Source of the DNA: an uncultured Gammaproteobacteria bacterium
GTDB lineage: Bacteria > Pseudomonadota > Gammaproteobacteria > Steroidobacterales > UBA11654
Assembly (NCBI GenBank): GCA_964008355.1
Contig: CAXGBD010000002.1
Coordinates: 1-44,928 of the forward strand
Reading direction: 5' to 3'
DNA length: 44,928 nt
This document shows positions 3,915 to 27,154 of this stretch, in pieces (the first letter of the stretch is position 1; every line of letters begins with the position of its first letter). The position numbers and the translations under genes are program-made. Below the pieces are notes generated by a model. That model had not been told where the DNA came from and made no database searches. It worked only from the letters and a program-made list of their open reading frames with translations.

Positions 3915-5030
3915 CTATAGTCTTGGAATTTCAGGATATGACCACCCTTCTGGGTTGGCTTTTCTTGCAACAGAAGGGACAACACAGTAGTTGTTATTGG
4001 CAATCATTTCTCGCCATTTTTTTTGATCAATTTGCCAGCCTTTTGCTTTCATTTCATGCATTATTTCCCAGTAAACTTTTATAATTGTGTCTTCGTGAAG
4101 ACCGACAATAGGTGACATACCATCGGGACCACCCTTAGGCACTTGGGCTTCAGCAATATCCTTGTCTTCAAAAATGTTCTTCAAATTTCTCTCAAGTGCT
4201 ATAGGGTCATTTTCTTTTTCAGTCATAAAATTTCTAAAGAAATAATAGCGCATCATTGTGCTTGTTTCATCTATCGGTGTTGAGAATTCATAAAAGCAAT
4301 TGAATGTTCCAGAGCCCATTGCACCAATTTCCACTTCACCTCGGAGTGTTTGTCCAGCTAAAAAATATTTTAAAACAGATTTAACTTGTGTTCCTTTCTC
4401 TCTAATATTTTTCCATTCACCTTTGCTATAGGTTGATTCGGTATGAATAAATGCAGTCAGCCCATAATCAGTTCTCCTGACTTCGTGAGGGGGTGGTTGA
4501 ACTGGGTTTTCTTGATCTAGAAATGATATGCCATGAACAATTGGAAGATGAACATAGTCTAAGTTACTGAACTTTGCCAAATGAAAATTAGATTCAAAAA
4601 CGACATCATATTCAACATAGGTATAACTTGGATCGTCGAGTTCCGGAATGTCAAAAATTGGTACCGCCTGTTCAGGTTGATCCCCTAGAAAAGTCCAGAT
4701 CAATCCATGTTTATCTACTGCGGGATAGTGATCAATTTTGGCTTCAGGGGTTACTTTTTCAGAATCATCACTACCGATAGAAGGTATTTTTCTACAGCGT
4801 CCCTTGTTGTCATATTGCCAGCCATGGAAAGGACACACTATCATCCCTTCCTCGCTACACGAACCATCTGACAAACTCGAGCCTCTGTGTGGACAAACAT
4901 TACTCAGACAGGCTGGGTTGCCTGCTTTATCTCTAAATAAAACAAAATCAGAACCGAGCATTTTCACATACAGAGGCTGATCCTTTAAATCACTGCTTCG
5001 TGCTGCCACATACCAAAGATTGGTGTACAT
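3915..5030 (-). CDS. Rieske [2Fe-2S] non-heme-iron oxygenase, alpha-only VanA/PaO-like type (subfamily A)
   Basis: Rieske motif CPHRG...CPFHGW and mononuclear-iron motif DYVHLPIVH (D-x2-H-x4-H). 371 aa with no adjacent beta subunit. Confidence 0.85.
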   Translation of the reverse strand: MYTNLWYVAARSSDLKDQPLYVKMLGSDFVLFRDKAGNPACLSNVCPHRGSSLSDGSCSEEGMIVCPFHGWQYDNKGRCRKIPSIGSDDSEKVTPEAKIDHYPAVDKHGLIWTFLGDQPEQAVPIFDIPELDDPSYTYVEYDVVFESNFHLAKFSNLDYVHLPIVHGISFLDQENPVQPPPHEVRRTDYGLTAFIHTESTYSKGEWKNIREKGTQVKSVLKYFLAGQTLRGEVEIGAMGSGTFNCFYEFSTPIDETSTMMRYYFFRNFMTEKENDPIALERNLKNIFEDKDIAEAQVPKGGPDGMSPIVGLHEDTIIKVYWEIMHEMKAKGWQIDQKKWREMIANNNYCVVPSVARKANPEGWSYPEIPRL

Positions 5031-7115: not shown

Positions 7116-8321
7116 TTAAGTATTAGGAGTTTTAACAAATTGGAAGTAGATTCCTAAAACAATTACTGCCAAGGCACCAAAGAAAAAAGGATAGTTTGGA
7201 TTGATATTATAGAGCAGGGCACCAATTGTAGGTCCAAAAATCATGCCTACTACTGGTGCTGCCGATAACAGACCTGCCATTTCTCCTTGTTCATGTTGTT
7301 CAACACTTAAGGTTGCAGCTGAGTTTAATACTGGAGAGATCATGCTAAAAGCAACACCAATGCCGGCAAATGATAAATAATAGTAGTTCAGGTTCTCTAT
7401 GTATGGAATTGACAACAGTACCAATCCAAAAATAAAAAAACTGAGTCGCAATAAGATTTTTACAGGTATATTTATGAGTTGTAAGACTACAGCTTGCATC
7501 AGTGTTGTGGCTAGAGCCATTGAGAGCAACGCAATGCTGGTTGCTTTAATGATTTCATTATAACCCGTAACACCAAGTCGATCTTCAATAAAGAATGCCG
7601 CTATGACTTGTGTTCCAGTAAATACCAAAAATACAACTGCCCAACCAATAAGGTAGGGTATGATTCGCTTGTCATAAAATTTTAAATTGTGATTTTGTAC
7701 TGGTTGAGCCTGCAGTCTTTGATTTGGCTCAATTAAAAACTTCATTGCTAAAAGACCGCCTATGATTGCCAGGGCTGCACCAAAATACAATGGAAATAAG
7801 GGATGAATGAAAGCAAGCCCACCTCCAAGGGCAGGACCAATCATGGTACCAATACCAGACGACATACCAATGAGTGCCATGCCTTGGGTTCTATGTTTAT
7901 CCTCGGTTGAATCTGAGATATAGGCAACCGCAGCGGGTTGGATACCTCCAATAAGACCCCCATAGATTAATCTGATCACAAATAATATGGAAAATAACTG
8001 CCAAGTGGCAAACAATCCCCATAAGCCAAGTTGAATTCCAAATGCAAACAATGCATAAGCTAATGCATAACTGAATAGACCTATAATAAAAACAGGTTTT
8101 CTGCCAATTGACTGACTTTTTTTACCCCAATAAAAGGATGAAAATACCAAAGCCACATTAGAAACGGCAAGCAATATGCCAAATTGATTTGTACTCAGAC
8201 CAATGCTTCGGGATAAAGGAGCAAAAATGATATAGAGCATTGAAAATCCGGCTCCATAAATAATCAAGCCGATAATCAAAATGATTTTGTCTAGACTAAT
8301 CCTAGATTGTCTTTCATTCAT
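7116..8321 (-). CDS. MFS transporter
   Basis: 401 aa, multi-pass hydrophobic protein with a GKKSQSIGRKP loop motif between TM2 and TM3. Confidence 0.8.
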   Translation of the reverse strand: MNERQSRISLDKIILIIGLIIYGAGFSMLYIIFAPLSRSIGLSTNQFGILLAVSNVALVFSSFYWGKKSQSIGRKPVFIIGLFSYALAYALFAFGIQLGLWGLFATWQLFSILFVIRLIYGGLIGGIQPAAVAYISDSTEDKHRTQGMALIGMSSGIGTMIGPALGGGLAFIHPLFPLYFGAALAIIGGLLAMKFLIEPNQRLQAQPVQNHNLKFYDKRIIPYLIGWAVVFLVFTGTQVIAAFFIEDRLGVTGYNEIIKATSIALLSMALATTLMQAVVLQLINIPVKILLRLSFFIFGLVLLSIPYIENLNYYYLSFAGIGVAFSMISPVLNSAATLSVEQHEQGEMAGLLSAAPVVGMIFGPTIGALLYNINPNYPFFFGALAVIVLGIYFQFVKTPNT

Positions 8322-8347
8322 TAGCTGTATTGGAGATTATTATAATA

Positions 8348-9283
8348 TTACTTAGAGGTTCTCTCTTGGACATCTATTCTGAGTCCTGCAGGGGATCTTA
8401 AACTACAAACAGGACCGTTTCCATATATTAAATTAAGATCTCCAAAATGGGCTAGATCAACCCCTATTGTTTTTGCTTTTTGAGTGAATGCTTTCATAGA
8501 ATTGGTTAAAAAAGAGCAATGCAAAACCCCTAGTGCGGGGGGAGAAGCTAATTTAAAACGGTTCACTTGATCGGATGCTCCTACATAGCTAATGATTTCT
8601 ACTGTCCCATATCTGTCTTTTTCATCACCGGAGAGTAGTCTTAGATTCAATCCTCCCCCTTGGGGTAAACCAATCATTTTCTCGATGTGTTCTCCAAATA
8701 ACTCTTCGTGTAGAGTTTCTTTCAAGTTGAATAGATCCGAATAGAATTTTCCTTCCCTGGCGGTATCCGGAACGATGACCACCAAGGAGGTGATACCACC
8801 ATAACCTTTTGCCGATAATTTTATTTTCTCTTCTAGCCACTCCATGAAAACAATATTTGTTTCATCGTGACCGGGCATTTGTACTTCAATGACATCTGCT
8901 TGTAATGTTTCTATCCTGTATTCGATGTACTTGGATCTGAATGAATAACCCATTTGTTGCAACTCATCATATTTTTTTGGTAAATCTTTGCAGGAAAGGT
9001 CCAGATTCTTGGGACCCAAATCGGTGCTATTGGCATCTTTTCTGACGGGATCATTGGGAGTCTTAAATTCCACTAAGTGAAGTTGACCAATTTCGACTCC
9101 AGGCGTTCTGACTAAAGCTTGAGTTCTTATATTATCGGGATCTATCCCCCATAGTGTTGCTAAGTTTTCATCTAAACCAGTTATTTTCTTTACCAATTCT
9201 AGATCAAACGTATCAACCCAAAGATCAAGTGCTGAATTGAGGTTCTCTACTCCTATTGCGATGGTTGAAATTGAACTGGGCAT
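8348..9283 (-). CDS. Two-domain VOC (glyoxalase / extradiol dioxygenase) family protein
   Basis: 311 aa with two glyoxalase-like beta-alpha-beta-beta-beta modules by eye (IAIGVENLNSALDLW..., ITSLVVIVPDTAREGKFY...). It lies 26 nt upstream of the MFS gene on the same strand. Confidence 0.55.
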   Translation of the reverse strand: MPSSISTIAIGVENLNSALDLWVDTFDLELVKKITGLDENLATLWGIDPDNIRTQALVRTPGVEIGQLHLVEFKTPNDPVRKDANSTDLGPKNLDLSCKDLPKKYDELQQMGYSFRSKYIEYRIETLQADVIEVQMPGHDETNIVFMEWLEEKIKLSAKGYGGITSLVVIVPDTAREGKFYSDLFNLKETLHEELFGEHIEKMIGLPQGGGLNLRLLSGDEKDRYGTVEIISYVGASDQVNRFKLASPPALGVLHCSFLTNSMKAFTQKAKTIGVDLAHFGDLNLIYGNGPVCSLRSPAGLRIDVQERTSK

Positions 9284-14394: not shown

Positions 14395-15552
14395 ATGATG
14401 TTTACTAATGTTTGGTATGTAGCTGAATCGAGCGATAAAATCAAGGATCAGCCTGTGGGAGTGACAATGTTGGGCCGGGATTTCGTGCTATTTCGCGATC
14501 AGTCCGGTAAACCAGTTTGTCTCAGTGGCGTTTGTCCACACCGCGGGGCTGACTTGTCTCAGGGAAAGTGTGAGCCTGATGGCACGGTCGGTTGTCCTTT
14601 TCATGCGTGGCGTTTTGACAGTAACGGCAGATGCACAAAGATTCCTTCCAACAAAGATCCGGTCGGTGAGATTCCCGATGCAGCACGTGTTGATTCTTAC
14701 CCAACGGAAGAAAAATATGGTTACATCTGGGTATTCTTGGGCGATGATCTAGAAAATGCAGAGCCAATCTTCGACATACCAGAATACAAAGATTCGGCAT
14801 GGTCCAGTGTGACACATGCCGTGACCTGGAACTGTAATCAGCATTGGGCAAAGCAGCTTGATCTCGATCACGTGCATTTACCGATCGTACATGGTATCGG
14901 CTTCGGTGGTGACAACCCAGTTAGACCCCCGGATCATACGGTTGAATATCGTAATGACGGCGGCTTTGAAGCCAAGATCTCTGGCAAGCCGGATATCACA
15001 AAGGGCAAGTGGTTGGAGCTACGCGATACACGCAGTGAGGTGTCTTCGAAATTCAAGTATTTCGTGCCTGGATTTACATCACGTGGCAAAGTTGCTGTCG
15101 GCGGGGTAGAAAAAGGGCTCTATAACATTTTCTATCAGTTCACGACACCGATCGATGAAGAACACACGCGGATGTACTACACGTTTTTCCGTAACTTCAT
15201 GACGGGACCGGAGGGTGATGCTGAACACCTGCGCCGCAATTGTCGGAATATTTATCAGGATAAATCATTGGCGGAAAAGGTCATGCCGAAACGAGCACCG
15301 GATGTACCGGTCTATCCGATGATTACCGCAGACCGCGAGGATAAACTTATCGGTGCATATTGGAAAGTCCTTCAGAACTTGCGGAGCAAGGGCTGGCAGA
15401 TCGACCGGGTACAGCTTGAAGCGTTGGATCAAAACGGTGACCACCGGACTATCCCTTCACCCGCACGTCGGCAGGAAGGTCCTGAGAAATGGGTATTCGA
15501 AGAAATACCCCGCATTGCTGGCACTGATAAGGCACAGCGTGATATAGCCTGA
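14395..15552 (+). CDS. Rieske non-heme-iron oxygenase (subfamily A), GC-rich copy
   Basis: CPHRG...CPFHAW plus DHVHLPIVH, with an AGGAGG site 8 nt upstream. It is a clear paralogue of 3915..5030 but has much higher GC and GC-ending codons. Confidence 0.85.
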   Translation: MMFTNVWYVAESSDKIKDQPVGVTMLGRDFVLFRDQSGKPVCLSGVCPHRGADLSQGKCEPDGTVGCPFHAWRFDSNGRCTKIPSNKDPVGEIPDAARVDSYPTEEKYGYIWVFLGDDLENAEPIFDIPEYKDSAWSSVTHAVTWNCNQHWAKQLDLDHVHLPIVHGIGFGGDNPVRPPDHTVEYRNDGGFEAKISGKPDITKGKWLELRDTRSEVSSKFKYFVPGFTSRGKVAVGGVEKGLYNIFYQFTTPIDEEHTRMYYTFFRNFMTGPEGDAEHLRRNCRNIYQDKSLAEKVMPKRAPDVPVYPMITADREDKLIGAYWKVLQNLRSKGWQIDRVQLEALDQNGDHRTIPSPARRQEGPEKWVFEEIPRIAGTDKAQRDIA

Positions 15553-15616
15553 ACGCAATCGATCAATGTCGGAACCAAGGTACCGGCTGCAATACAACAG
15601 ATTAAGGAGAGCAACG

Positions 15617-15973
15617 ATGAGTCGAGTAAGTAAAATCAACAAAGAACAAAGTGACGGACACTGGAATCTTGTGCGTTTCCGATCAGATGCGTATGACGCC
15701 TGCCAGGCACTTGAAGAAATCGCCTTCGCTGATGGCGCCTTGTCGACAAAGACCAAGGAACTAATGGCGGTTAGTATTTCAATACAAACTGGATGTGAGG
15801 CTGCTATTCAGAAGCACATCGACCGGGCCGCTGAACAGGGAGCAAGTTTTGAGGAGTCATTAGAAGCTATTGAGGTAAGTATCGCCATGGGTGGCAGTAC
15901 AGCCGCTGCCGCTGCGCATGTCGCTTTTTATGCCTTGGACCAGGTCTACTCACGCGAAATTCTCAAGTTCTAA
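15617..15973 (+). CDS. Carboxymuconolactone decarboxylase (CMD/AhpD-like) family protein
   Basis: The pattern FADGALSTKTKELMAVSISIQTGCEAAIQKHIDRAAEQGAS matches CMD-family proteins, with only the first Cys of the usual CxxC present. ATG 15617 follows AAGGAG, and the track start at 15566 has no such site. Confidence 0.65.
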   Translation: MSRVSKINKEQSDGHWNLVRFRSDAYDACQALEEIAFADGALSTKTKELMAVSISIQTGCEAAIQKHIDRAAEQGASFEESLEAIEVSIAMGGSTAAAAAHVAFYALDQVYSREILKF

Positions 15974-16037
15974 CTATAAACAGCCTCTGGAGAAATTCTA
16001 AGCCAGACTGAGTGCCTCTCAAGAGCGAATAACCTGG

Positions 16038-16955
16038 ATGCATCACCTAGAATTCAACAAGACAGGTCCTTTGCAAATCTTTTACGATCTGTTTGAAGAG
16101 CATATGTCCCTGGATGACAATTACCAGTTCTACTCGAACAGCAAAAAAGCAGGAATCAACACGTTTCTCAGCTCCGATATATTCAGCGCTGAGAAAGTTT
16201 CAACGATCATCCTTGAAGAATATTCAATCCGGGGAAAACTGGGCGGCAACGTCATGTTGACTTTTCCCGATCCTGAATACGATGTGCCTATTTTTGCATT
16301 TCAGCTGGGCGGGAATGCCACCAAATCCAAATCATTTGCCCTGTTAGATATCAGTCCAACATTACCCGATTTAGACTACGAGCCTCTGATTCCGGTATTC
16401 GAAAAATACAGAAAACTTCTCGACTTGCCTCGATCAAAAATTGATTGGGTCAATAGCACGAGCTCGCCGTACCTGCTGCTTTGCCAATACGATACTCTGG
16501 ATATCAAGCTGTTCCTCGAAGCCACAAGGGAATACCTGAAGGTATGGATCGAACATTATTACAAACCGGGCAAAAAACTAACCAATGAAAAGGCCTTTGA
16601 GAACGTCAACAATGCCATCATTAAATACAAACGGGTCCTGCACGACAACGATCCTGCTTACGGCATATTTCACAAAGAGTGGGGCGAACCCGTCGCCGAC
16701 GCATTCTTTTATATAGAGACCCGCAATCATCCATCAATCCCACCGCCGGATCATTCCGGAAAGACAAAAAAAGCATGGGAAAACAAGAGCTTGAATATTC
16801 TCTGGGAAATCCAGGCACAGGAGCGCGTTTTACAGGCTCCCGAGCAGGTACAAAAGCGTATTATTGACACCATTGAAGCGAAAGCGTCTGACGACAATAT
16901 GGGAATCATCACGCTGGAATTATTCGACAAATATAAAGAAGCTATATTCGTCTAA
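16038..16955 (+). CDS. Divergent ferredoxin-dependent bilin reductase (FDBR)-fold protein with a C-terminal extension
   Basis: Hand alignment to remembered PcyA. ILEEYSIRGKLGGNVMLTFPDPEYDVPIFAFQLGG...LLDISPT aligns with [36 protein letters not shown]...IADLSPT. NDPAYGIFHKEWGEPVADAFF aligns with [21 protein letters not shown]. Confidence 0.5.
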   Translation: MHHLEFNKTGPLQIFYDLFEEHMSLDDNYQFYSNSKKAGINTFLSSDIFSAEKVSTIILEEYSIRGKLGGNVMLTFPDPEYDVPIFAFQLGGNATKSKSFALLDISPTLPDLDYEPLIPVFEKYRKLLDLPRSKIDWVNSTSSPYLLLCQYDTLDIKLFLEATREYLKVWIEHYYKPGKKLTNEKAFENVNNAIIKYKRVLHDNDPAYGIFHKEWGEPVADAFFYIETRNHPSIPPPDHSGKTKKAWENKSLNILWEIQAQERVLQAPEQVQKRIIDTIEAKASDDNMGIITLELFDKYKEAIFV

Positions 16956-17001
16956 ACCGTCCGGTTAAACCTAATAAAAAAATGCACTTTTTTTAACTTT
17001 C

Positions 17002-17871
17002 TTACTTAAGCGGAGGTGCCGGAGTTTGTTCTCTTGCATAGTATTCCAGACTGGAAATGCTGGGTCCGTAATCTTCCGTTGGGGCGCTGAGCATATGTGG
17101 ATAATTTTCTTCAGCGAATTGCCTGATATGCTTTGGAATGATATCGATTGAATTTGATTTAATCATGGCTCCAACGTATACACAATGACCAGGTGTATCT
17201 CCCATTAACATCCAAGGTAGCCAGGGTGTTATGCGACTCCAGGTTCCATTGTAGTGCACTGAAGTTAATTCAGGATTTTGTAATTCGTCTAATGATACAA
17301 AATAGCGCATCATTTCAGAGACTTGAGCCATTGGACCTGATGATTCTCTGACCCACTTATCAGGTTGCAGCGCATTGGGATAATAAAGGTGCATATCAGT
17401 ATTTAAAACCACGGTATCACCTATTATTCTCCAGGGGAAAAGCAGAGGAATTTTGATTGGCTGTTGTTTTTCCTTTCCTGGAAAATCTTCAGGAGCAAGG
17501 ATCAGCCACTCACTGATCGTATAATTAAAGGGATCATTGGCGACGTGAACGACATTAACCACTTCTTCTGTCCAGGGATTGGTCCATTCATGAATGATTT
17601 CACCGCTTCGAGAATTGGTGTAGAAAATAACCTCCTTATTTAATCGACGAATCGTACCGTCCTCTTGCTGAGGCAGCAGTCGGGTACACAAAAATGTTTC
17701 AAATCCGCACAATTCTTTTACAGCCTCACCAGGCTTAACACCAAGAATTTGGCCATTGACATAACTAATTGATTCATTCTCTGAGTTTAAATCACCCTGG
17801 ATTCTAGCCCAGGCGTCTCTGTTCCATGTATTGGATTGAAAATTTATTTCATGTTCAAATTCAATGGTCAT
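17002..17871 (-). CDS. DUF1838-like protein of unknown function
   Basis: The core EVIFYTNSRSGEIIHEWTNPWTEEVVNVVHVANDPFN resembles my recollection of DUF1838. There is no signal peptide. ATG 17871 follows AAGGAG. Confidence 0.45.
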   Translation of the reverse strand: MTIEFEHEINFQSNTWNRDAWARIQGDLNSENESISYVNGQILGVKPGEAVKELCGFETFLCTRLLPQQEDGTIRRLNKEVIFYTNSRSGEIIHEWTNPWTEEVVNVVHVANDPFNYTISEWLILAPEDFPGKEKQQPIKIPLLFPWRIIGDTVVLNTDMHLYYPNALQPDKWVRESSGPMAQVSEMMRYFVSLDELQNPELTSVHYNGTWSRITPWLPWMLMGDTPGHCVYVGAMIKSNSIDIIPKHIRQFAEENYPHMLSAPTEDYGPSISSLEYYAREQTPAPPLK

Positions 17872-17884
17872 TCTTTTCTCCTTG

Positions 17885-18412
17885 TTAACGCGATTCACGC
17901 ATGATGTAATTAATAATTAATTTTCTTGTATCTGGATCTTCAATTCCTTCCATTCTCATCCTATTTCCAGGAATAAAATCTTTAGGATTGGACATGAAAG
18001 CATCCAATGCCTCTGGTGTCCAGATCAACCCGTTATTTTTCATCTGGATGAGTGCATCAGAATATGTGAAATTGTCAGAGATACCTGCAGGTTTAGCAAA
18101 AATACGATATAAACTTGGAGCCATTCGATCTCTATCATTAGCTTTTATTGAATGACAGAATCTACACTTGCCCCCATCCCAGTTGGAAAAGGCATCTGCT
18201 TCCATTTGCTTTTGTTCATCGCTGATCATTGGTAGTTCATTGAGATAATAATCTGGCAGATCCAGATTGGCAGTTAATTGCTTAATCTCATCTGGGGTGG
18301 CATTGGTTGTATTGGTCAATGGATAGGCACCAAATATTAGGTAGGGCAAATAACAAGATACTGCTAGTAAAATTAAAACCAAAAGCCAGTCTTTTTTCTT
18401 GCCAATTTTCAT
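17885..18412 (-). CDS. Membrane-anchored class I c-type cytochrome
   Basis: N-terminal TM anchor WLLVLILLAVSCYLPYLIF, heme motif CRFCH, and a distal PGNRM Met ligand as in cytochrome c2/c550. Confidence 0.8.
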   Translation of the reverse strand: MKIGKKKDWLLVLILLAVSCYLPYLIFGAYPLTNTTNATPDEIKQLTANLDLPDYYLNELPMISDEQKQMEADAFSNWDGGKCRFCHSIKANDRDRMAPSLYRIFAKPAGISDNFTYSDALIQMKNNGLIWTPEALDAFMSNPKDFIPGNRMRMEGIEDPDTRKLIINYIMRESR

Positions 18413-18431
18413 TGCTTACCCATCTTAATAA

Positions 18432-18953
18432 TCAAGTGAAAATATTAAATCGCCAAACCCGGTAACGGATCATATGATAAATACCTATGAGTACAATAAA
18501 CAAGATGATAGCGATATATAAAAATGCAAATACACTGTGAAGATAACCAGAAAAAACCCACAGAGCATGATTAACAGATTCCGAGCTCGATTGAAATTGT
18601 ATCAACCCGTCAGACCAAGCGGTAACCACACCGGTAAGCCCCTGAGCAATGAAGGAACAATAAAGAGTAAACTGAAGAACATGCAATTGATTGAAAGCTT
18701 CTTGTGGTAATTTTTGTTGTTTGTTTTGAGGAGGGAAGTGCCACCAAATATAAACCCTGAGAAAACTAAATGCGAATAAGATGGAAGCAATTGCCAAATG
18801 AAAACTTCTTAACGAAGCCCTTTCAGGTGATTCGATCGGAACTCTAGGGGCCACAGACATGTTGATGAAAACCACAATGAATAGTACAAGAATTAGCCAA
18901 CTTAATAACGTGGATGTCTTATCTGCTACTGTTGTTTTTTGTAAGTGATCCAC
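18432..18953 (-). CDS. Cytochrome b561 (CybB-like) membrane protein
   Basis: Four TM helices with His residues placed as in E. coli CybB (RSFHLAI, QLHVLQF, VNHAL...YLHSV). The position of the first CybB HW motif reads SW. The GTG start lies 2 nt after the upstream stop. Confidence 0.55.
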   Translation of the reverse strand: MDHLQKTTVADKTSTLLSWLILVLFIVVFINMSVAPRVPIESPERASLRSFHLAIASILFAFSFLRVYIWWHFPPQNKQQKLPQEAFNQLHVLQFTLYCSFIAQGLTGVVTAWSDGLIQFQSSSESVNHALWVFSGYLHSVFAFLYIAIILFIVLIGIYHMIRYRVWRFNIFT

Positions 18954-23818: not shown

Positions 23819-24931
23819 TTAGTTCTTCAGCAGAGGAATAGGATCTAATACCCAATTTTTCTCAGTGTTTCTAGCTGGGCAAGGAACAGAATATGCGGTT
23901 TGATGTTCCTCTTCTTTCAGTTTTTTTGTATCAATCTTAAATCCTTTGCTTTTGAATCCTGCCAGTGTTTTTCGGTATTCGCCAACAACAGCATCTGATG
24001 GAACCAATATCTCTTTGTTCATGGTTGGAGGGGTAACAACGGGTTGAGTGACATTTAAAATCGTAATGTCTTCTTTGGCAATAGCAAGGTTTCTCTCTGT
24101 AACCATCGCATCCATAGACTCCTCCATAAGCCAGTTACGCATGTTGACAAAAAATATCTGAGTGTGAAACTCATCAATTGGTTTTTCGAAAAAATATTGA
24201 TGAAACCAACCAGTTTCTTTTTTGGTATGAATTTGTGTAATCAAAGCATTAGGACCATGGTATCCGCCTAAAACTTCGAGTTCACCAGACTCATCTCTTG
24301 CAGTCTCACCATAGGTTTTCTTATCCAGAGGAGGAGCATCAAAGACTTGAGAAAAATTTGCTCCCCATTGAGTTTGAGATATTTTAGTAGGGTTGACTTT
24401 GTAATCGTTTTTTACACCTGAGAATCCATGGGTTGGATGGACAAATTCATTGTGTGCCGGATCCAATCCATTTTCAATGGAGCGTTCATAATTATAATCA
24501 ATATCGATGGTAATAGTCTCATTAGCACGCCATCCCTCAGCTTCATATTCCTCAATTTCATAGAGTCCTGGTCTTTCTTCCTCGGAAAGATCACCCAGAA
24601 AGGCAAAAATGATGTCATATTTTTCAATCACTGGATAACTATCAACCTTCGCTCTTGCTGGAGGTTTTTCGTTGTAACCAATAGATGGCACGGTAATACA
24701 TTTTCCATCGCCATCAAATTGCCAACCATGGTATGGACAGGCGACTGCGTTATTTAAGCATTTTCCATCACCTAGAGAACCTCCACGATGAACACAGACG
24801 TTACTAAGACAGTGGGCTATGCCTTTCTGGTCCCTGAAAGCAACAAACTCAACACCAAGTATTTTTCGCTTGATCGGTTTATCTTCCAGTTCATTGGTTA
24901 AGCAAACGGGATACCAAAAATTGATATACAT
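23819..24931 (-). CDS. Rieske non-heme-iron oxygenase (subfamily B)
   Basis: CVHRGGSL...CPYHGWQF plus ENGLDPAHNEFVH. 370 aa. Confidence 0.85.
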   Translation of the reverse strand: MYINFWYPVCLTNELEDKPIKRKILGVEFVAFRDQKGIAHCLSNVCVHRGGSLGDGKCLNNAVACPYHGWQFDGDGKCITVPSIGYNEKPPARAKVDSYPVIEKYDIIFAFLGDLSEEERPGLYEIEEYEAEGWRANETITIDIDYNYERSIENGLDPAHNEFVHPTHGFSGVKNDYKVNPTKISQTQWGANFSQVFDAPPLDKKTYGETARDESGELEVLGGYHGPNALITQIHTKKETGWFHQYFFEKPIDEFHTQIFFVNMRNWLMEESMDAMVTERNLAIAKEDITILNVTQPVVTPPTMNKEILVPSDAVVGEYRKTLAGFKSKGFKIDTKKLKEEEHQTAYSVPCPARNTEKNWVLDPIPLLKN

Positions 24932-25033: not shown

Positions 25034-26143
25034 CTATGATTTCAAAAGTGGAACAGAATCTATGACCCAACCCTTGGCTTTTTTTCTAGCTGGACTGGGA
25101 ATGGCGTAAGCATGTGATAATTTATTTTCTCTAACGGTTTCAGTATCGATTCTCCATCCTTTCTCTTCCCATTTTTTCAACAACTCTCTATAGAGTTTAA
25201 TGGGTTTGTCAATGGGAACAAAAAATTCATTGTTACTTTCATTGGGCGTCAATAGTGGCTTGACCCCTAACAGAACATCTCGGTCTTGAAAAGCAACCAC
25301 TTGATTGCGTTCAATCACTCGATCATCATCTTTGGGATCAGTTAGAAAATTTCTGGTGGTAATGAGATAGAAATTAGTTTGGGTCTCATCGATTGGTGTT
25401 TCGAACGCATATTGATGAATAAAAACCTCAGGTGTTGGATGAATGTAAGTCCAAAGCGTTGATATGCCATGATGACCCGTTCCGGCTTCAATGAGTGCAT
25501 TCTCTTTGCGGCCCGAAGCTTTCTGCATTTTTTTCTCTTTCAAAGGAGGGGCAAACATTTTACTGAATAATCCAGTTCCCCACTCGGTCGATGTGATATC
25601 AATCTCAGGAGCTTTATAGTCCTCATTTTCACCTGAAAAACCATGGCTAGGATGGACAAACTCGTTGTGTGCGGCATCGATACCATTCTCAATGGATCGT
25701 TTATAATCAATATCAAATTGCAGAGATTGCCACGTTGTTCTCCATCCCTCCATTTCATATTCTTTGACCTCAAGAATGGGACACCTTTCTTCTTCTGGAA
25801 GGTCGCCGAGAAAACAGAAGATTAGACCATAAATTTCTTTGGTCGGGTAGGAATCAATTTTAGCTCTTTTTGGTATTTTTGCATTTTTTCCCAATGAAGG
25901 GATTCGATGGCATATTCCTTCACCATCAAATTGCCAGCCATGATAAGGGCACTCCACGCAGTCGCCTTTTATTTTGCCACCAGCTAAGGATCCTCCCCGA
26001 TGAATACATACATCGCTCAAACATCTTGGTTTACCAGATTGATCCCTAAACAAGACAAAGTTCTGCCCAAGCATTTTCTTTCGAATGGGTTGGTCAGTGA
26101 GATTGCCACTGGTTTCAGCTGGATACCAGAAATTGATAAACAT
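25034..26143 (-). CDS. Rieske non-heme-iron oxygenase (subfamily B), tandem paralogue
   Basis: CIHRGGSL...CPYHGWQF plus ENGIDAAHNEFVH. 369 aa. It has the same AATAGGGGA ribosome-binding region as 23819..24931. Confidence 0.85.
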   Translation of the reverse strand: MFINFWYPAETSGNLTDQPIRKKMLGQNFVLFRDQSGKPRCLSDVCIHRGGSLAGGKIKGDCVECPYHGWQFDGEGICHRIPSLGKNAKIPKRAKIDSYPTKEIYGLIFCFLGDLPEEERCPILEVKEYEMEGWRTTWQSLQFDIDYKRSIENGIDAAHNEFVHPSHGFSGENEDYKAPEIDITSTEWGTGLFSKMFAPPLKEKKMQKASGRKENALIEAGTGHHGISTLWTYIHPTPEVFIHQYAFETPIDETQTNFYLITTRNFLTDPKDDDRVIERNQVVAFQDRDVLLGVKPLLTPNESNNEFFVPIDKPIKLYRELLKKWEEKGWRIDTETVRENKLSHAYAIPSPARKKAKGWVIDSVPLLKS

Positions 26144-26254: not shown

Positions 26255-27154
26255 TTAATTATTTTCTTTGTTCTGATTGAGCAGTTTCTGTTTAAATCCT
26301 GTAGGTGTAAAGACCGCAATTAGGGTGATCATAATCACAGTTCCTAAAACAACTAGAATCTCAGTTAAGTATTCCTGGGGGTATACCCAGAATTCTACCA
26401 ATAATCCCCATTTGCCAATCACTTCATAGGAACTGTATGCGATGATTGCGGTCGGAATGGCGTACCTGATAGCGGTAGTGACTTTCCAAAATTTAAATAA
26501 TCTCCACAATAGATAAACAGCCCAAGTGGTATTTAGAACAAAGAAGGCGTAGGTAATGGGATGATAAGCACCAATAAATGCATCTTCATAAAGCAGCAAA
26601 AGAATTATGTAGAAAAACCAAATTACGTATATCGTTTCGAGTGCGGTTATGGCTGCAAAGTTTCTTGGATAGCCGGGAGTTGGTTTTCCTGTTGATAGTT
26701 TAAAATTTCGCTGAATCCATTTGAAGAAATTGCATTTTGTTTCTCGATTCAATAAAAAGTAGAGCAAGGTTGTTAATAGAACCCCAATCGAGGACTGCAT
26801 CAATAAGTACTCTGGAAATCTATTGAGACTGCCATCGGGAAGAATTTGTTCAACTTCAAGATATTCTGCATAGAAAACAAAGGAAAACTCAACCCAGCCT
26901 GTCCACAGAAAAAGACCTGCAAAATAGCCCAACCAAGTTGCTGGCACTTCATTTTCTTTTTTCATCCCTATAAACAGGAGAATTCCTCCCAATATTCCAA
27001 GATAGAATGCCCCTTGGTATTGGTAGTCGGCGCCAAGAGTTTTTTCGACAAGCACCATCAGAGTGTGTCCCAATCCCTGAGTTAGAAATACTATTAGAAA
27101 GGCCAATATGCCTACATAAGGCGGTTTATAAAATACTTCTTTAACGTGGCTCAT
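26255..27154 (-). CDS. Polytopic membrane protein of unknown function
   Basis: 299 aa with about 8 hydrophobic, Trp/Tyr/Phe-rich segments. I recognise no family motif. Confidence 0.6.
   Translation of the reverse strand: MSHVKEVFYKPPYVGILAFLIVFLTQGLGHTLMVLVEKTLGADYQYQGAFYLGILGGILLFIGMKKENEVPATWLGYFAGLFLWTGWVEFSFVFYAEYLEVEQILPDGSLNRFPEYLLMQSSIGVLLTTLLYFLLNRETKCNFFKWIQRNFKLSTGKPTPGYPRNFAAITALETIYVIWFFYIILLLLYEDAFIGAYHPITYAFFVLNTTWAVYLLWRLFKFWKVTTAIRYAIPTAIIAYSSYEVIGKWGLLVEFWVYPQEYLTEILVVLGTVIMITLIAVFTPTGFKQKLLNQNKENN

What the first reader, a model, noticed from the sequence alone, without database searches (positions are those of the whole stretch)
16038..16955. Bilin-reductase-fold protein next to a Rieske oxygenase, a PaO/RCCR-like pairing in an apparent heterotroph
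Direct observation: by hand alignment the 305-aa product matches my recollection of the ferredoxin-dependent bilin reductase family. ILEEYSIRGKLGGNVMLTFPDPEYDVPIFAFQLGG...LLDISPT aligns with PcyA [36 protein letters not shown]...IADLSPT, and NDPAYGIFHKEWGEPVADAFF aligns with [21 protein letters not shown]. In that alignment the Glu (PcyA E76) is kept, but the His88 and Asp105 proton-donor positions read Val and Gln. A C-terminal extension of about 60 aa has no PcyA counterpart. Established knowledge: this fold family holds PcyA, PebA/B, PebS and HY2, and also plant red chlorophyll catabolite reductase, which acts right after the Rieske-type pheophorbide a oxygenase. Inference: a Rieske oxygenase two genes upstream of such a protein, with no photosynthesis, heme oxygenase, ferredoxin or phytochrome gene in view, suggests an uncharacterised tetrapyrrole-processing module (chlorophyll-, heme- or bilin-derived substrate) rather than phycobilin synthesis.
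Basis: partly seen in the sequence, partly recalled or inferred. Interest (0 to 1): 0.8.

Follow-up and report, generated by a model that had tools for sequence, protein, structure and literature searches.

The report
Divergent bilin-reductase-fold gene, recently transferred
The gene really does encode a bilin-reductase-fold protein, from an uncharacterized bacterial branch with an altered active site and an extra tail domain, but its position next to a Rieske oxygenase is a recent patchwork of gene transfers, not a conserved chlorophyll-breakdown-like module.

Summary
ORF 16038-16955 passes Pfam Fe_bilin_red (65.8 bits, cutoff 31). Its AlphaFold model (pLDDT 93.6) matches PcyA, PebB, PebA and HY2 better than RCCR. 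The 60-aa extension is a PCP_red domain.

The protein belongs to a compact, uncharacterized clade (99% bootstrap; 93% with tail-bearing relatives in other phyla). The clade comes from uncultured Gammaproteobacteria. Its E/V/Q/D signature matches no characterized FDBR and no published pre-PcyA lineage.

The PaO/RCCR-like cassette reading does not hold for this window:
- Nucleotide homology to the closest relative (95.6%) covers only the gene plus about 20 bp on each side.
- The Rieske/CMD pair is a separate unit, 78% identical to its counterpart on another contig of that same MAG.
- No other locus carries the trio.
- Neither Rieske subfamily has a PaO domain, and the window holds four such oxygenases.

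Some support for the broader idea remains. One subclade keeps an RCCR-like / Rieske / FDBR-like cluster, and some Rieske oxygenases carry the same PCP_red tail.

The most likely function is ferredoxin-driven reduction of a tetrapyrrole. This is inferred, not shown.

The parts
16038..16955 (+). Gene for the 305-aa FDBR-fold protein (Gln-type clade, long form with tail).
   Evidence: ORF. Pfam PF05996 at 65.8 bits. AF2 pLDDT 93.6. Foldseek hits to FDBRs. More than 100 homolog clusters.
16107..16709 (+). FDBR catalytic-fold domain (residues 24-224). Key codons: Glu60 at 16215-16217, Val72 at 16251-16253, Gln89 at 16302-16304, Asp205 at 16650-16652.
   Evidence: Pfam envelope. Residue mapping by profile and MAFFT alignment. 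Codon coordinates. Glu60, Val72, Gln89 and Asp205 are invariant in 44 family members.
16803..16934 (+). C-terminal PCP_red-type helical module (residues 256-299). It is absent from about half of the family, the ~236-aa short forms.
   Evidence: Weak Pfam PF08369 hit. Precomputed PF08369 on many homologs. Foldseek to 2kru at 0.8 A over 48 aa and to 2l09. Profile hits to asr4154 and BchB. A tail HMM also hits the C-termini of Rieske-A-like oxygenases.
16022..16976 (.). Horizontally shared segment: the only stretch of the window with nucleotide homology (95.6%) to the L001/L023/L034 population. It is the gene plus 16 bp upstream and 21 bp downstream.
   Evidence: blastn of the window against the loci. 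Window GC is 40.2% against 51.7% for L001. The gene's GC3 is 0.526, z = 3.3 against the window's genes.
14395..15973 (+). Neighbouring Rieske-A (14395-15552) and CMD-family (15566-15973) pair. This is a separate conserved two-gene unit, also compositionally foreign. I do not regard it as part of the FDBR-like protein's system.
   Evidence: Pfam Rieske + VanA_C and CMD. GC3 z = 2.7 and 2.3. The pair is conserved as TetR-Rieske-CMD-MFS without an FDBR-like gene on 24 contigs. It is 78% nucleotide-identical to L085 over exactly 14395-15974.

Best explanation
[quoted passage not shown] It belongs to a distinct, uncharacterized clade found in uncultured Gammaproteobacteria, with more distant tail-bearing relatives in other phyla.

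Shown:
- Family and fold membership.
- An invariant active-site signature: Glu60 (PcyA Glu76 position), Val72 (His88), Gln89 (Asp105) and Asp205 (PcyA Asp220 / HY2 Asp256 / PebS Asp206).
- A C-terminal PCP_red module on the long forms.
- A stand-alone gene with no conserved operon.
- In this window, recent arrival as a single-gene horizontal transfer that landed next to an unrelated Rieske/CMD pair.

Inferred mechanism: the protein binds a tetrapyrrole in the canonical FDBR pocket. The ligand is most likely linear (biliverdin-like or another bilin-type catabolite), possibly cyclic. The protein carries out a ferredoxin-driven, proton-coupled two-electron reduction, using Asp205 and/or Glu60 as proton donors. 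The central carboxylate is replaced by an amide, as in land-plant HY2. The PCP_red tail serves either to dock the electron donor or to cap the pocket.
For: - Family and fold.
- Clade distinctness: in an exhaustive search of 1.84 billion representatives, scores drop from E ~1e-40 within the clade to ~1e-11 for the nearest outsiders. NJ bootstrap is 99% for the core family and 93% for core plus second tier. NCBIfam equivalogs are far below cutoff.
- Signature: E/V/Q/D in every core family member, and not combined in any outsider.
- An amide at the central position is compatible with activity. Tomato HY2, the best-scoring solved relative, has Asn there. Pre-1 E91Q and Pre-2 D91N stay active (PMC13446030).
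- Ferredoxin dependence is plausible for non-canonical relatives: 4Fe-4S ferredoxin::FDBR-like fusions P0186 and P0219 exist.
- Stand-alone gene: immediate neighbours differ in almost every one of 28 lineages.
- Transfer: homology to L001 is confined to 16022-16976 at 95.6%. The L001 arrangement is syntenic with L004/L013/L014 at 72-80% for both gene and flanks, so inheritance there is vertical. GC3 outlier, z = 3.3.
- The Rieske/CMD pair has a separate history.
Against: - No substrate, product or electron donor has been demonstrated for any member.
- No heme oxygenase, bilin-binding acceptor or ferredoxin is consistently nearby, so the source of a bilin substrate is unknown.
- In Pre-3, the Asp-to-Asn change at the equivalent position lowered activity and shifted binding to heme and protoporphyrin IX. 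Gln89 could therefore mean a porphyrin ligand or a non-catalytic role.
- PCP_red is a promiscuous module, so the tail says little about substrate.
- The NJ tree lacks verified pre-PcyA reference sequences.
Confidence: 0.55

Rival explanations
1. Bacterial PaO/RCCR-like catabolic module. A Rieske oxygenase opens or oxygenates a chlorophyll- or heme-derived tetrapyrrole. FDBR-fold reductases (this protein and/or the RCCR-like paralog) then reduce the product.
For: - Rieske oxygenase is the neighbour family shared by the most lineages: 5 of 28 within four genes, and 3 of 48 immediate-neighbour slots.
- One subclade keeps RCCR-like(-)/Rieske-B(+)/FDBR-like(+), often with a luciferase-like monooxygenase. 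The FDBR-like proteins there are 73-75% identical and the Rieske proteins 89-90%, whereas contexts elsewhere change even at 94% identity.
- In the window the gene inserted beside a Rieske gene, with no terminator predicted between them.
Against: - About 23 of 28 lineages have no Rieske gene within four genes. Several sit among housekeeping genes such as PEPCK/DapE/DapD, MnmE and thymidylate synthase.
- Rieske neighbours in different lineages are different paralogs, 32-51% identical.
- No PaO domain on either subfamily.
- Enrichment is weak: P = 0.01-0.17 for 1-3% background, before allowing for shared ancestry.
- The RCCR-like family is itself stand-alone, with no Rieske neighbour in three sampled genomes.
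- The window's juxtaposition is recent and composite.
Confidence: 0.15
2. Non-catalytic (or no longer reductive) tetrapyrrole-binding protein. It would act as a porphyrin or heme carrier, chaperone or sensor that uses the FDBR pocket.
For: - The central catalytic Asp is invariantly Gln and His88 is Val.
- Pre-3 D96N gains heme/PPIX binding and loses most activity.
- The fold is shared with coproporphyrinogen oxidase (hit 5eo6).
- Cytochrome or heme-related genes are near several loci: the window (cytochrome c and b561), L015, L045, L007 and L073. A HemF-like gene lies in L007.
Against: - Glu60 and Asp205, the two other proton-donor positions, are invariant. That is more than a simple binding protein would be expected to need.
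- Amide substitutions at this site are compatible with catalysis in HY2, Pre-1 and Pre-2.
- The cytochrome neighbours are not consistent across lineages.
Confidence: 0.15
3. A reductase or isomerase for a substrate that is not a tetrapyrrole (for example a product of the many oxygenases in these catabolic islands), with the FDBR fold recruited to new chemistry.
For: - Neighbours in many loci are oxygenases or redox enzymes of xenobiotic or aromatic type: TauD, PhyH, Rieske, FAD monooxygenase, luciferase-like, NmrA-like, amine oxidase.
- No tetrapyrrole pathway gene is consistently linked.
Against: - Every characterized member of this fold (FDBRs, RCCR, CPO) acts on tetrapyrroles.
- The retained DPAYG-type motif and Glu60 correspond to bilin-contacting or proton-donor positions.
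- The oxygenase neighbours are not conserved either.
Confidence: 0.1

Closest known systems
Phytochromobilin synthase HY2 (land plants; PDB 6kmd/6kme)
   Same: - Best-scoring solved relative by profile (E 1.8e-7).
- Same fold.
- An amide (Asn) instead of Asp at the PcyA-D105 position, and the A-ring Asp (D256/D263) kept as Asp205.
   Different: - HY2 has a compensating Asp (AtHY2 D116 / tomato D123) at or near the His88 position. This protein has Val72 and no insertion there (alignment).
- HY2 lacks Glu at the E76 position and has no PCP_red tail.
- HY2 is plastid-targeted and works with heme oxygenase to make the phytochrome chromophore.
PcyA, PebA, PebB and PebS (canonical cyanobacterial, phage and algal FDBRs)
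   Same: - Pfam family, fold and the 'DxSPT' motif.
- Glu at the PcyA E76 position.
- A DPA(H/Y)G-type motif as in PebA.
   Different: - Central Asp replaced by Gln; His88 replaced by Val.
- Equivalog scores about one-sixth of the cutoffs; 16-19% identity.
- Extra tail, heterotroph host, no phycobiliprotein context.
[quoted passage not shown] 2023, PMC10151467; Frascogna et al. 2026, PMC13446030)
   Same: FDBR-like proteins of non-photosynthetic bacteria that lack the full PcyA catalytic triad. Pre-1 also occurs in gammaproteobacteria.
   Different: - Published signatures are A/N(T)/E/S, V/N/D/D and A/T/D/R, against E/V/Q/D here.
- Pre-PcyA genes sit with heme oxygenase, Fe-S, V4R and BBAG globin genes, or with a B12-binding protein plus a globin. 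None of these is seen here.
- No PCP_red tail is reported for them.
- This family may correspond to one of the two unplaced, uncharacterized clades mentioned in PMC13193486. I could not check, because those trees are held only as images.
Red chlorophyll catabolite reductase (RCCR) with pheophorbide a oxygenase (PaO)
   Same: - Same fold superfamily (Foldseek E 1.7e-7).
- A Rieske oxygenase lies nearby in some lineages.
- A bacterial RCCR-like paralog (PF06405) shares a cluster with the FDBR-like gene in one subclade.
   Different: - The target has no PF06405 hit, and RCCR is undetectable by sequence profile.
- The Rieske proteins lack the PaO domain.
- Linkage is not conserved, and the window's adjacency is recent.
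PCP_red domain (PF08369): C-terminus of DPOR subunit BchB/ChlB; Nostoc asr4154
   Same: The tail superposes on 2kru at 0.8 A over 48 aa. The family profile hits asr4154 and BchB.
   Different: Here the domain is fused to an FDBR fold. It is also found fused to Rieske oxygenases, radical SAM/SPASM, Usp and rubredoxin-like domains, and in tandem arrays. It is therefore a general module, not a tetrapyrrole-specific one.

Membership tests
FDBR superfamily (Pfam PF05996 Fe_bilin_red) | Profile-HMM score above the curated gathering threshold | tested here: met
   65.8 bits against 31, E 5.9e-18, residues 24-224.
FDBR superfamily (Pfam PF05996 Fe_bilin_red) | FDBR alpha/beta/alpha sandwich fold | tested here: met
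   AF2 pLDDT 93.6. Foldseek: PcyA E 1.3e-10 with TM 0.73; PebB, PebA and HY2 all at probability 1.00.
FDBR superfamily (Pfam PF05996 Fe_bilin_red) | Central Asp (PcyA D105 / PebS D105) that protonates the bilin | tested here: not met
   Gln89, invariant in 44 family members. Land-plant HY2 likewise has Asn here.
FDBR superfamily (Pfam PF05996 Fe_bilin_red) | A-ring-side Asp (HY2 D256 / PebS D206 / PcyA D220) | tested here: met
   Asp205 in an invariant DPA motif.
FDBR superfamily (Pfam PF05996 Fe_bilin_red) | Ferredoxin-dependent reduction of biliverdin or a dihydrobiliverdin | not testable with these tools
   Needs a biochemical assay.
PcyA, PebA and PebB orthologs (NCBIfam equivalogs NF002760, NF009720, NF009723) | Equivalog model score above cutoff | tested here: not met
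   33, 43.8 and 30.8 bits against cutoffs of 206, 263 and 327.
PcyA | Catalytic triad Glu76, His88, Asp105 | tested here: not met
   Only Glu is kept (Glu60). His becomes Val72 and Asp becomes Gln89.
Pre-PcyA (pre-1, pre-2, pre-3) | Lineage-specific active-site residues (Table 2 of PMC13446030) | tested here: not met
   E/V/Q/D against A/N(T)/E/S, V/N/D/D and A/T/D/R.
Pre-PcyA (pre-1, pre-2, pre-3) | Gene cluster with heme oxygenase, Fe-S protein, V4R pair and BBAG globin (pre-1, pre-3), or B12-binding protein plus globin (pre-2) | tested here: not met
   None of these appears among annotated neighbours in the sampled loci.
Pre-PcyA (pre-1, pre-2, pre-3) | Phylogenetic position on the PcyA/PcyX branch | tested here: inconclusive
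   The NJ tree puts the family in its own clade (93-99% bootstrap), apart from the labelled PcyA group. No verified pre-PcyA sequences were available, and deep nodes are unreliable.
RCCR (Pfam PF06405) | Profile-HMM match to RCC_reductase | tested here: not met
   No PF06405 hit at E <= 1. RCCR is absent from the profile-versus-PDB hits. There is only fold similarity, weaker than to FDBRs.
PaO/RCCR-type two-enzyme module | Partner oxygenase of the PaO/Tic55/CAO type (Rieske + PaO domain PF08417) | tested here: not met
   Rieske-A and Rieske-B hit only Rieske, VanA_C and KshA_C.
PaO/RCCR-type two-enzyme module | Evolutionarily conserved linkage or co-occurrence of the oxygenase and reductase genes | tested here: inconclusive
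   The trio is found nowhere else. Rieske genes fill 3 of 48 immediate-neighbour slots, P 0.01-0.17. Linkage is conserved only within one subclade, together with an RCCR-like gene.
PCP_red domain (Pfam PF08369) | Profile or structural match of the C-terminal ~45 residues | tested here: met
   The window protein itself is sub-threshold (16.5 bits against 32.5), but homologs carry PF08369. Foldseek to 2kru gives 0.8 A over 48 aa. The profile hits asr4154 at E 0.025.

The most novel reading that the evidence does not exclude
The Gln-type, PCP_red-tailed proteins are an early-diverging 'archae-FDBR' lineage that does not make chromophores. Instead they work in bacterial breakdown of chlorophyll- or heme-derived tetrapyrroles. 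In at least one gammaproteobacterial subclade they would form a three-enzyme unit with a VanA-type Rieske oxygenase and an RCCR-like paralog, a bacterial counterpart of the plant PaO/RCCR step. The PCP_red module, found on both the FDBR-like protein and some Rieske oxygenases, would be a portable adaptor that recruits one shared electron donor to otherwise unrelated ferredoxin-dependent enzymes.
Probability: 0.12. Interest if true: 0.85.

Novelty: new variant of a known kind. Interest (0 to 1): 0.48.

Why it matters
FDBRs are the enzymes that make the chromophores of phycobilisomes and phytochromes. [quoted passage not shown]

This family is a well-defined, uncharacterized candidate for that question:
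- It has an unusual active site, with an amide in place of the central Asp while Glu and the A-ring Asp are kept.
- It has an extra domain.
- It has no heme-oxygenase or bilin-acceptor partner.

Determining its substrate would show what the fold does outside chromophore synthesis. It could also bear on how marine heterotrophs dispose of tetrapyrroles, about which little is known.

The shared PCP_red tail on FDBR-like and Rieske enzymes is a testable lead on how such enzymes find their reductant.

The result also has a practical lesson.

Tried and rejected
- I searched the supplements of the three FDBR phylogeny papers for NCBI accessions of family members (MBM4221217, MBN8280190, MDH4022579, MCL4791364, MEZ5562822). 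The trees are held only as images and one paper has no held supplement, so I could not tell whether the family is already in those trees.
- Literature searches for PCP_red/PF08369 and for PF05996/FDBR-like found nothing on this family. A search on bacterial RCCR/PaO found only plant papers.
I made up for this with the metagenome scan using the alignment (56 loci) and 12 context look-ups.
- I considered that window ORF 26255-27154, next to the Rieske-B pair, was an RCCR-like protein. Rejected: it has no Pfam hit and no similarity to the L017 RCCR-like protein.
- I considered the PCP_red tail as evidence for a tetrapyrrole lid, by analogy with BchB. This was weakened: the domain occurs in arrays and on radical SAM/SPASM, Usp, rubredoxin-like and Rieske proteins.
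- I considered co-transfer of the three GC3-outlier genes as one cassette. Rejected: the Rieske/CMD pair is 78% and the FDBR-like gene 95.6% identical to the same donor-like lineage, where they lie on different contigs.
- Model coordinates are not exposed, so I could not examine pocket geometry or tail placement.
- The first bootstrap attempt timed out. I redid it with a numpy NJ.
- tblastn against plasmid and phage collections found no family member, so no transfer vector was identified.
- The promoter/terminator scan around the gene was uninformative.
Full report
**1. Observation**

Pfam Fe_bilin_red (PF05996) scores 65.8 bits against a gathering cutoff of 31 (E 5.9e-18, residues 24-224).
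- A profile built from 44 family members hits tomato HY2 (1.8e-7), PebA (1.5e-5), PcyA (5.8e-5) and PebB (6e-4) among PDB sequences. It does not hit RCCR.
- An AlphaFold2 model made with that alignment is confident (pLDDT 93.6, pTM 0.92).
- The model's top 42 Foldseek hits in the PDB are all FDBRs or RCCR. FDBRs come first (PcyA 2g18 at E 1.3e-10 and TM 0.73; PebB, PebA, HY2), then RCCR from E 1.7e-7. Coproporphyrinogen oxidase appears only at E ~0.1.

The roughly 60-aa extension is a PCP_red domain (PF08369).
- The window protein's own hit is weak.
- Many homologs carry a precomputed PF08369 hit.
- The model superposes on the BchB PCP_red NMR structure at 0.8 A over 48 residues.

**2. What family it is**

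The word-indexed search found 116 homolog clusters at 42-99% identity. Every named member comes from a Gammaproteobacteria MAG, and none from a cultured organism. About half are ~300 aa with the tail and half are ~236 aa without it. The alignment has 37 invariant positions, including Glu60, Tyr62, Val72, Gln89, Asp104, Asp205 and Glu227.

An exhaustive HMMER search of 1.84 billion representatives shows that the family is compact and isolated.
- About 20 representatives score at E <= 1e-30. These include a second tier at ~30% identity: P0156, P0157, P0159 and P0163 carry the tail, and P0153 does not.
- There is then a gap to E ~1e-11 for canonical-size FDBR-like proteins.

The nearest outsiders are themselves uncharacterized.
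- P0180 clusters with the *Ca.* Schekmanbacteria protein OGL42193.1. That is the group Rockwell et al. placed between FDBRs and RCCR.
- P0186 and P0219 are 4Fe-4S ferredoxin::FDBR-like fusions.
- None reaches an NCBIfam equivalog cutoff.

Active-site signatures separate the groups. Every core family member reads E/V/Q/D at the four positions. Three second-tier proteins also read E/V/Q/D, and one reads N/V/H/D. All outsiders have Asp, Glu, Asn or Thr at the central position, and none combines Glu at the first position with Gln at the third.

The published signatures are pre-1 A/N(T)/E/S, pre-2 V/N/D/D and pre-3 A/T/D/R. None matches. A pre-1-like sequence (P0200, V/N/E/S) falls far from the family.

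In an NJ tree (231 columns, 56 taxa, 200 bootstraps) the core family has 99% support and core plus second tier has 93%. This clade is separate from the groups labelled by PcyA, PebA and HY2 PDB fragments. Deep branching order should not be trusted, and I had no verified pre-PcyA sequences. The family could be one of the two unplaced, uncharacterized clades noted by Frascogna et al. 2026, which I could not check.

**3. Is the Rieske/CMD/FDBR-like arrangement a module?**

I gathered about 75 family loci in 28 lineages (80% identity clusters) from GTDB genomes, JGI metagenomes and context look-ups. The trio occurs in none of them. Immediate neighbours differ in nearly every lineage. They include:
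- GST and cytochrome c
- DUF2207 and UbiD
- TPR and cytochrome oxidase
- MnmE and a methyltransferase
- PEPCK, DapE, ArsC and DapD
- thymidylate synthase
- TauD
- a PHA-granule protein
- MbnB and DUF2063

The strongest evidence comes from the closest relatives.
- L001, L023 and L034 are one population (99.97% identical to one another) whose FDBR-like protein is 94% identical to the window's.
- Nucleotide homology to the window (95.6%) spans only 16022-16976. That is the gene plus 16 bp upstream and 21 bp downstream. Nothing else in 45 kb matches.
- The L001 arrangement is syntenic over more than 15 kb with L004, L013 and L014, at 72-80% identity for gene and flanks alike. Inheritance in that lineage is therefore vertical.
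- The window is 40.2% GC and L001 is 51.7%.
- Within the window, three genes are GC3 outliers: Rieske-A 0.497 (z 2.7), CMD 0.478 (z 2.3) and the FDBR-like gene 0.526 (z 3.3). The other 33 genes all lie between 0.30 and 0.40.

The Rieske/CMD pair has its own history.
- Its closest relative (P0380, 89% aa) lies in TetR-Rieske-CMD-MFS on 24 contigs, with no FDBR-like gene.
- One of those contigs belongs to the same MAG as L001 (GCA_036010905.1, contigs 9 and 16). Another belongs to the same assembly as L023.
- The pair is only 78% nucleotide-identical to the window, over exactly 14395-15974.

So two units that are on different contigs in the donor-like lineage arrived in the window's genome at different times and ended up side by side. 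The adjacency is recent and composite.

Other points weigh against a PaO-like reading.
- The window has four Rieske/VanA_C oxygenases in 45 kb.
- Neither subfamily has the PaO domain, even at E <= 0.1.

**4. What remains of the idea**

In an unbiased clustering of neighbours, Rieske oxygenase was still the family shared by the most lineages: 5 of 28 within four genes, and 3 of 48 immediate-neighbour slots. For a 1-3% background this gives P = 0.012-0.17, before allowing for shared ancestry, so it is weak. The Rieske neighbours are different paralogs, 32-51% identical. Apart from the window's own, they belong to subfamily B, not to the window's adjacent subfamily A.

One subclade is different. 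L017, L018, L019, L022, L073 and L074 keep a Rieske-B gene immediately upstream on the same strand.
- Except in L019, whose contig ends too soon, a divergently transcribed 274-311-aa gene lies just upstream of the Rieske gene.
- In L017, L018, L022 and L074 a luciferase-like monooxygenase lies further upstream.
- In L017 and L018 the divergent gene passes Pfam's RCC_reductase threshold (28.6 and 28.0 bits, cutoff 24.9). In L022 it falls just below (22.4 bits).
- This arrangement holds across 73-75% FDBR-like protein identity, with the Rieske proteins 89-90% identical.

The RCCR-like family is large (at least 158 clusters, Gammaproteobacteria). It too is generally stand-alone.
- No Rieske neighbour in three long contigs.
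- Once directly upstream of ferrochelatase.
- Once in the same assembly as a short-form FDBR-like gene but on a different contig.

Rieske-A relatives at 47-49% identity (P0483-P0488, P0491, P0492, P0495; ~470 aa) carry a C-terminal PCP_red domain. An HMM of the FDBR-like tails hits residues ~417-466 in eight of them (E 3e-8 to 3e-5). PCP_red also occurs in tandem arrays and fused to radical SAM/SPASM, Usp and rubredoxin-like domains. It is therefore a general module attached to electron-requiring enzymes and not a tetrapyrrole marker. A donor-docking role is a reasonable hypothesis, but it is untested.

**5. Mechanism**

Shown:
- FDBR fold and family membership.
- The invariant Glu60/Gln89/Asp205 signature.
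- The tail.
- No signal peptide evident in the N-terminal sequence.
- Stand-alone gene status.

Inferred: a ferredoxin-driven, proton-coupled two-electron reduction of a tetrapyrrole bound in the canonical pocket, with Asp205 and/or Glu60 as proton donors.

An amide at the central site does not preclude catalysis. Land-plant HY2 has Asn there. Pre-1 E91Q and Pre-2 D91N remain active.

There is a caution. Pre-3 D96N lost most activity and co-purified with heme and protoporphyrin IX. A porphyrin ligand or a binding-only role therefore cannot be excluded.

No heme oxygenase, bilin acceptor or ferredoxin is consistently linked, so the physiological substrate is unknown.

My estimates are:

| Explanation | Estimate |
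|---|---|
| Tetrapyrrole reductase, stand-alone | 0.55 |
| Rieske-coupled catabolic module | 0.15 |
| Non-catalytic tetrapyrrole binder | 0.15 |
| Non-tetrapyrrole chemistry | 0.10 |

**6. Comparison, novelty and verdict**

The protein works most like a two-electron FDBR of the HY2/pre-PcyA kind. It is a member of the FDBR superfamily. It is not a member of PcyA, PebA, PebB, any published pre-PcyA lineage, or RCCR.

I rate it a new variant of a known kind: a distinct clade with an altered catalytic centre and an added domain. It is of moderate interest to people working on FDBR origins, who have asked for "archae-FDBR" or "pre-PebA" candidates.

The more interesting leads lie outside the window:
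- the RCCR-like/Rieske-B/FDBR-like cluster in a sister subclade;
- the PCP_red tail shared with Rieske oxygenases.

No family member was found on known plasmids or phages.

Noticed in passing
window 14395-16955: A 2.6-kb compositional island. Rieske-A, CMD and the FDBR-like gene have GC3 of 0.48-0.53 (z 2.3-3.3), while the other 33 genes lie at 0.30-0.40. The island is composite: its two units are 78% and 95.6% identical to genes that lie on different contigs in one MAG (GCA_036010905.1).
   Followed up: yes
window 3915-5030(-), 14395-15552(+), 23819-24931(-), 25034-26143(-): Four Rieske/VanA_C oxygenases in 45 kb, in two subfamilies: A (3915 and 14395; 48% identical to each other) and B (23819 and 25034; 49% identical to each other). 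No VanB-type reductase gene was seen among the annotated ORFs.
   Followed up: partly
L017:3455-4390(-), L018:2339-3163(-), L022:2332-3156(-), L073:23-847(-), L074:3544-4368(-): A bacterial RCCR-like protein (Pfam RCC_reductase above threshold in L017 and L018), transcribed divergently from a Rieske-B/FDBR-like gene pair. The family has at least 158 clusters in Gammaproteobacteria MAGs and is uncharacterized. L073 and L074 are assigned by size and position only.
   Followed up: partly
L076:7001-7813 and 7950-9014: In a 2.57-Mb contig the RCCR-like gene lies directly upstream of ferrochelatase on the same strand (137-bp gap). This is a possible link to heme metabolism.
   Followed up: no
P0483-P0488, P0491, P0492, P0495 (residues ~417-466): VanA-type Rieske oxygenases of Gammaproteobacteria with a C-terminal PCP_red domain homologous to the FDBR-like tail (tail HMM hits eight of them at E 3e-8 to 3e-5). 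This suggests a module shared between two kinds of electron-requiring enzyme.
   Followed up: partly
P0191, P0206, P0211, P0223, P0229, P0237: PCP_red occurs as 3-5 tandem copies fused to radical SAM/SPASM, universal stress protein and rubredoxin-like domains. The domain's function is unknown, and it is clearly not confined to protochlorophyllide reductase.
   Followed up: no
P0186 and P0219: N-terminal 4Fe-4S ferredoxin domain fused to an FDBR-like domain that keeps the central Asp, in an uncharacterized clade. This would be a self-contained ferredoxin-bilin-reductase architecture.
   Followed up: no
window 26255-27154(-); L012:6290-7204(+); L007:14895-15845(-): A 299-aa protein with no Pfam match, next to the window's Rieske-B pair. 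It has homologs (E 1e-50 to 1e-55) 5-9 kb from the FDBR-like gene in two other lineages. In L007 it is followed by a small ferredoxin (Fer4/DUF3470).
   Followed up: partly
L007:3179-4060(+): A 293-aa protein just below the Pfam coproporphyrinogen oxidase threshold (30.2 bits against 31.8), about 4 kb upstream of the FDBR-like gene. It would be another member of the same fold superfamily in the same neighbourhood.
   Followed up: no
L001:11081-12699; L004:9116-10740; L006:2692-4316: An MbnB/TglH/ChrH-family gene plus a DUF2063/HvfC_N gene lies immediately downstream of the FDBR-like gene in the vertically inherited arrangement of the window's closest relatives. L001 also has hemerythrin and DUF2249 genes upstream.
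   Followed up: no
window 17002-18953(-): A DUF1838 protein, a c-type cytochrome and a cytochrome b561 form a convergent three-gene run that ends 46 bp from the FDBR-like stop codon. Cytochrome genes also lie near the family in L007, L015, L045 and L073, but not consistently.
   Followed up: partly
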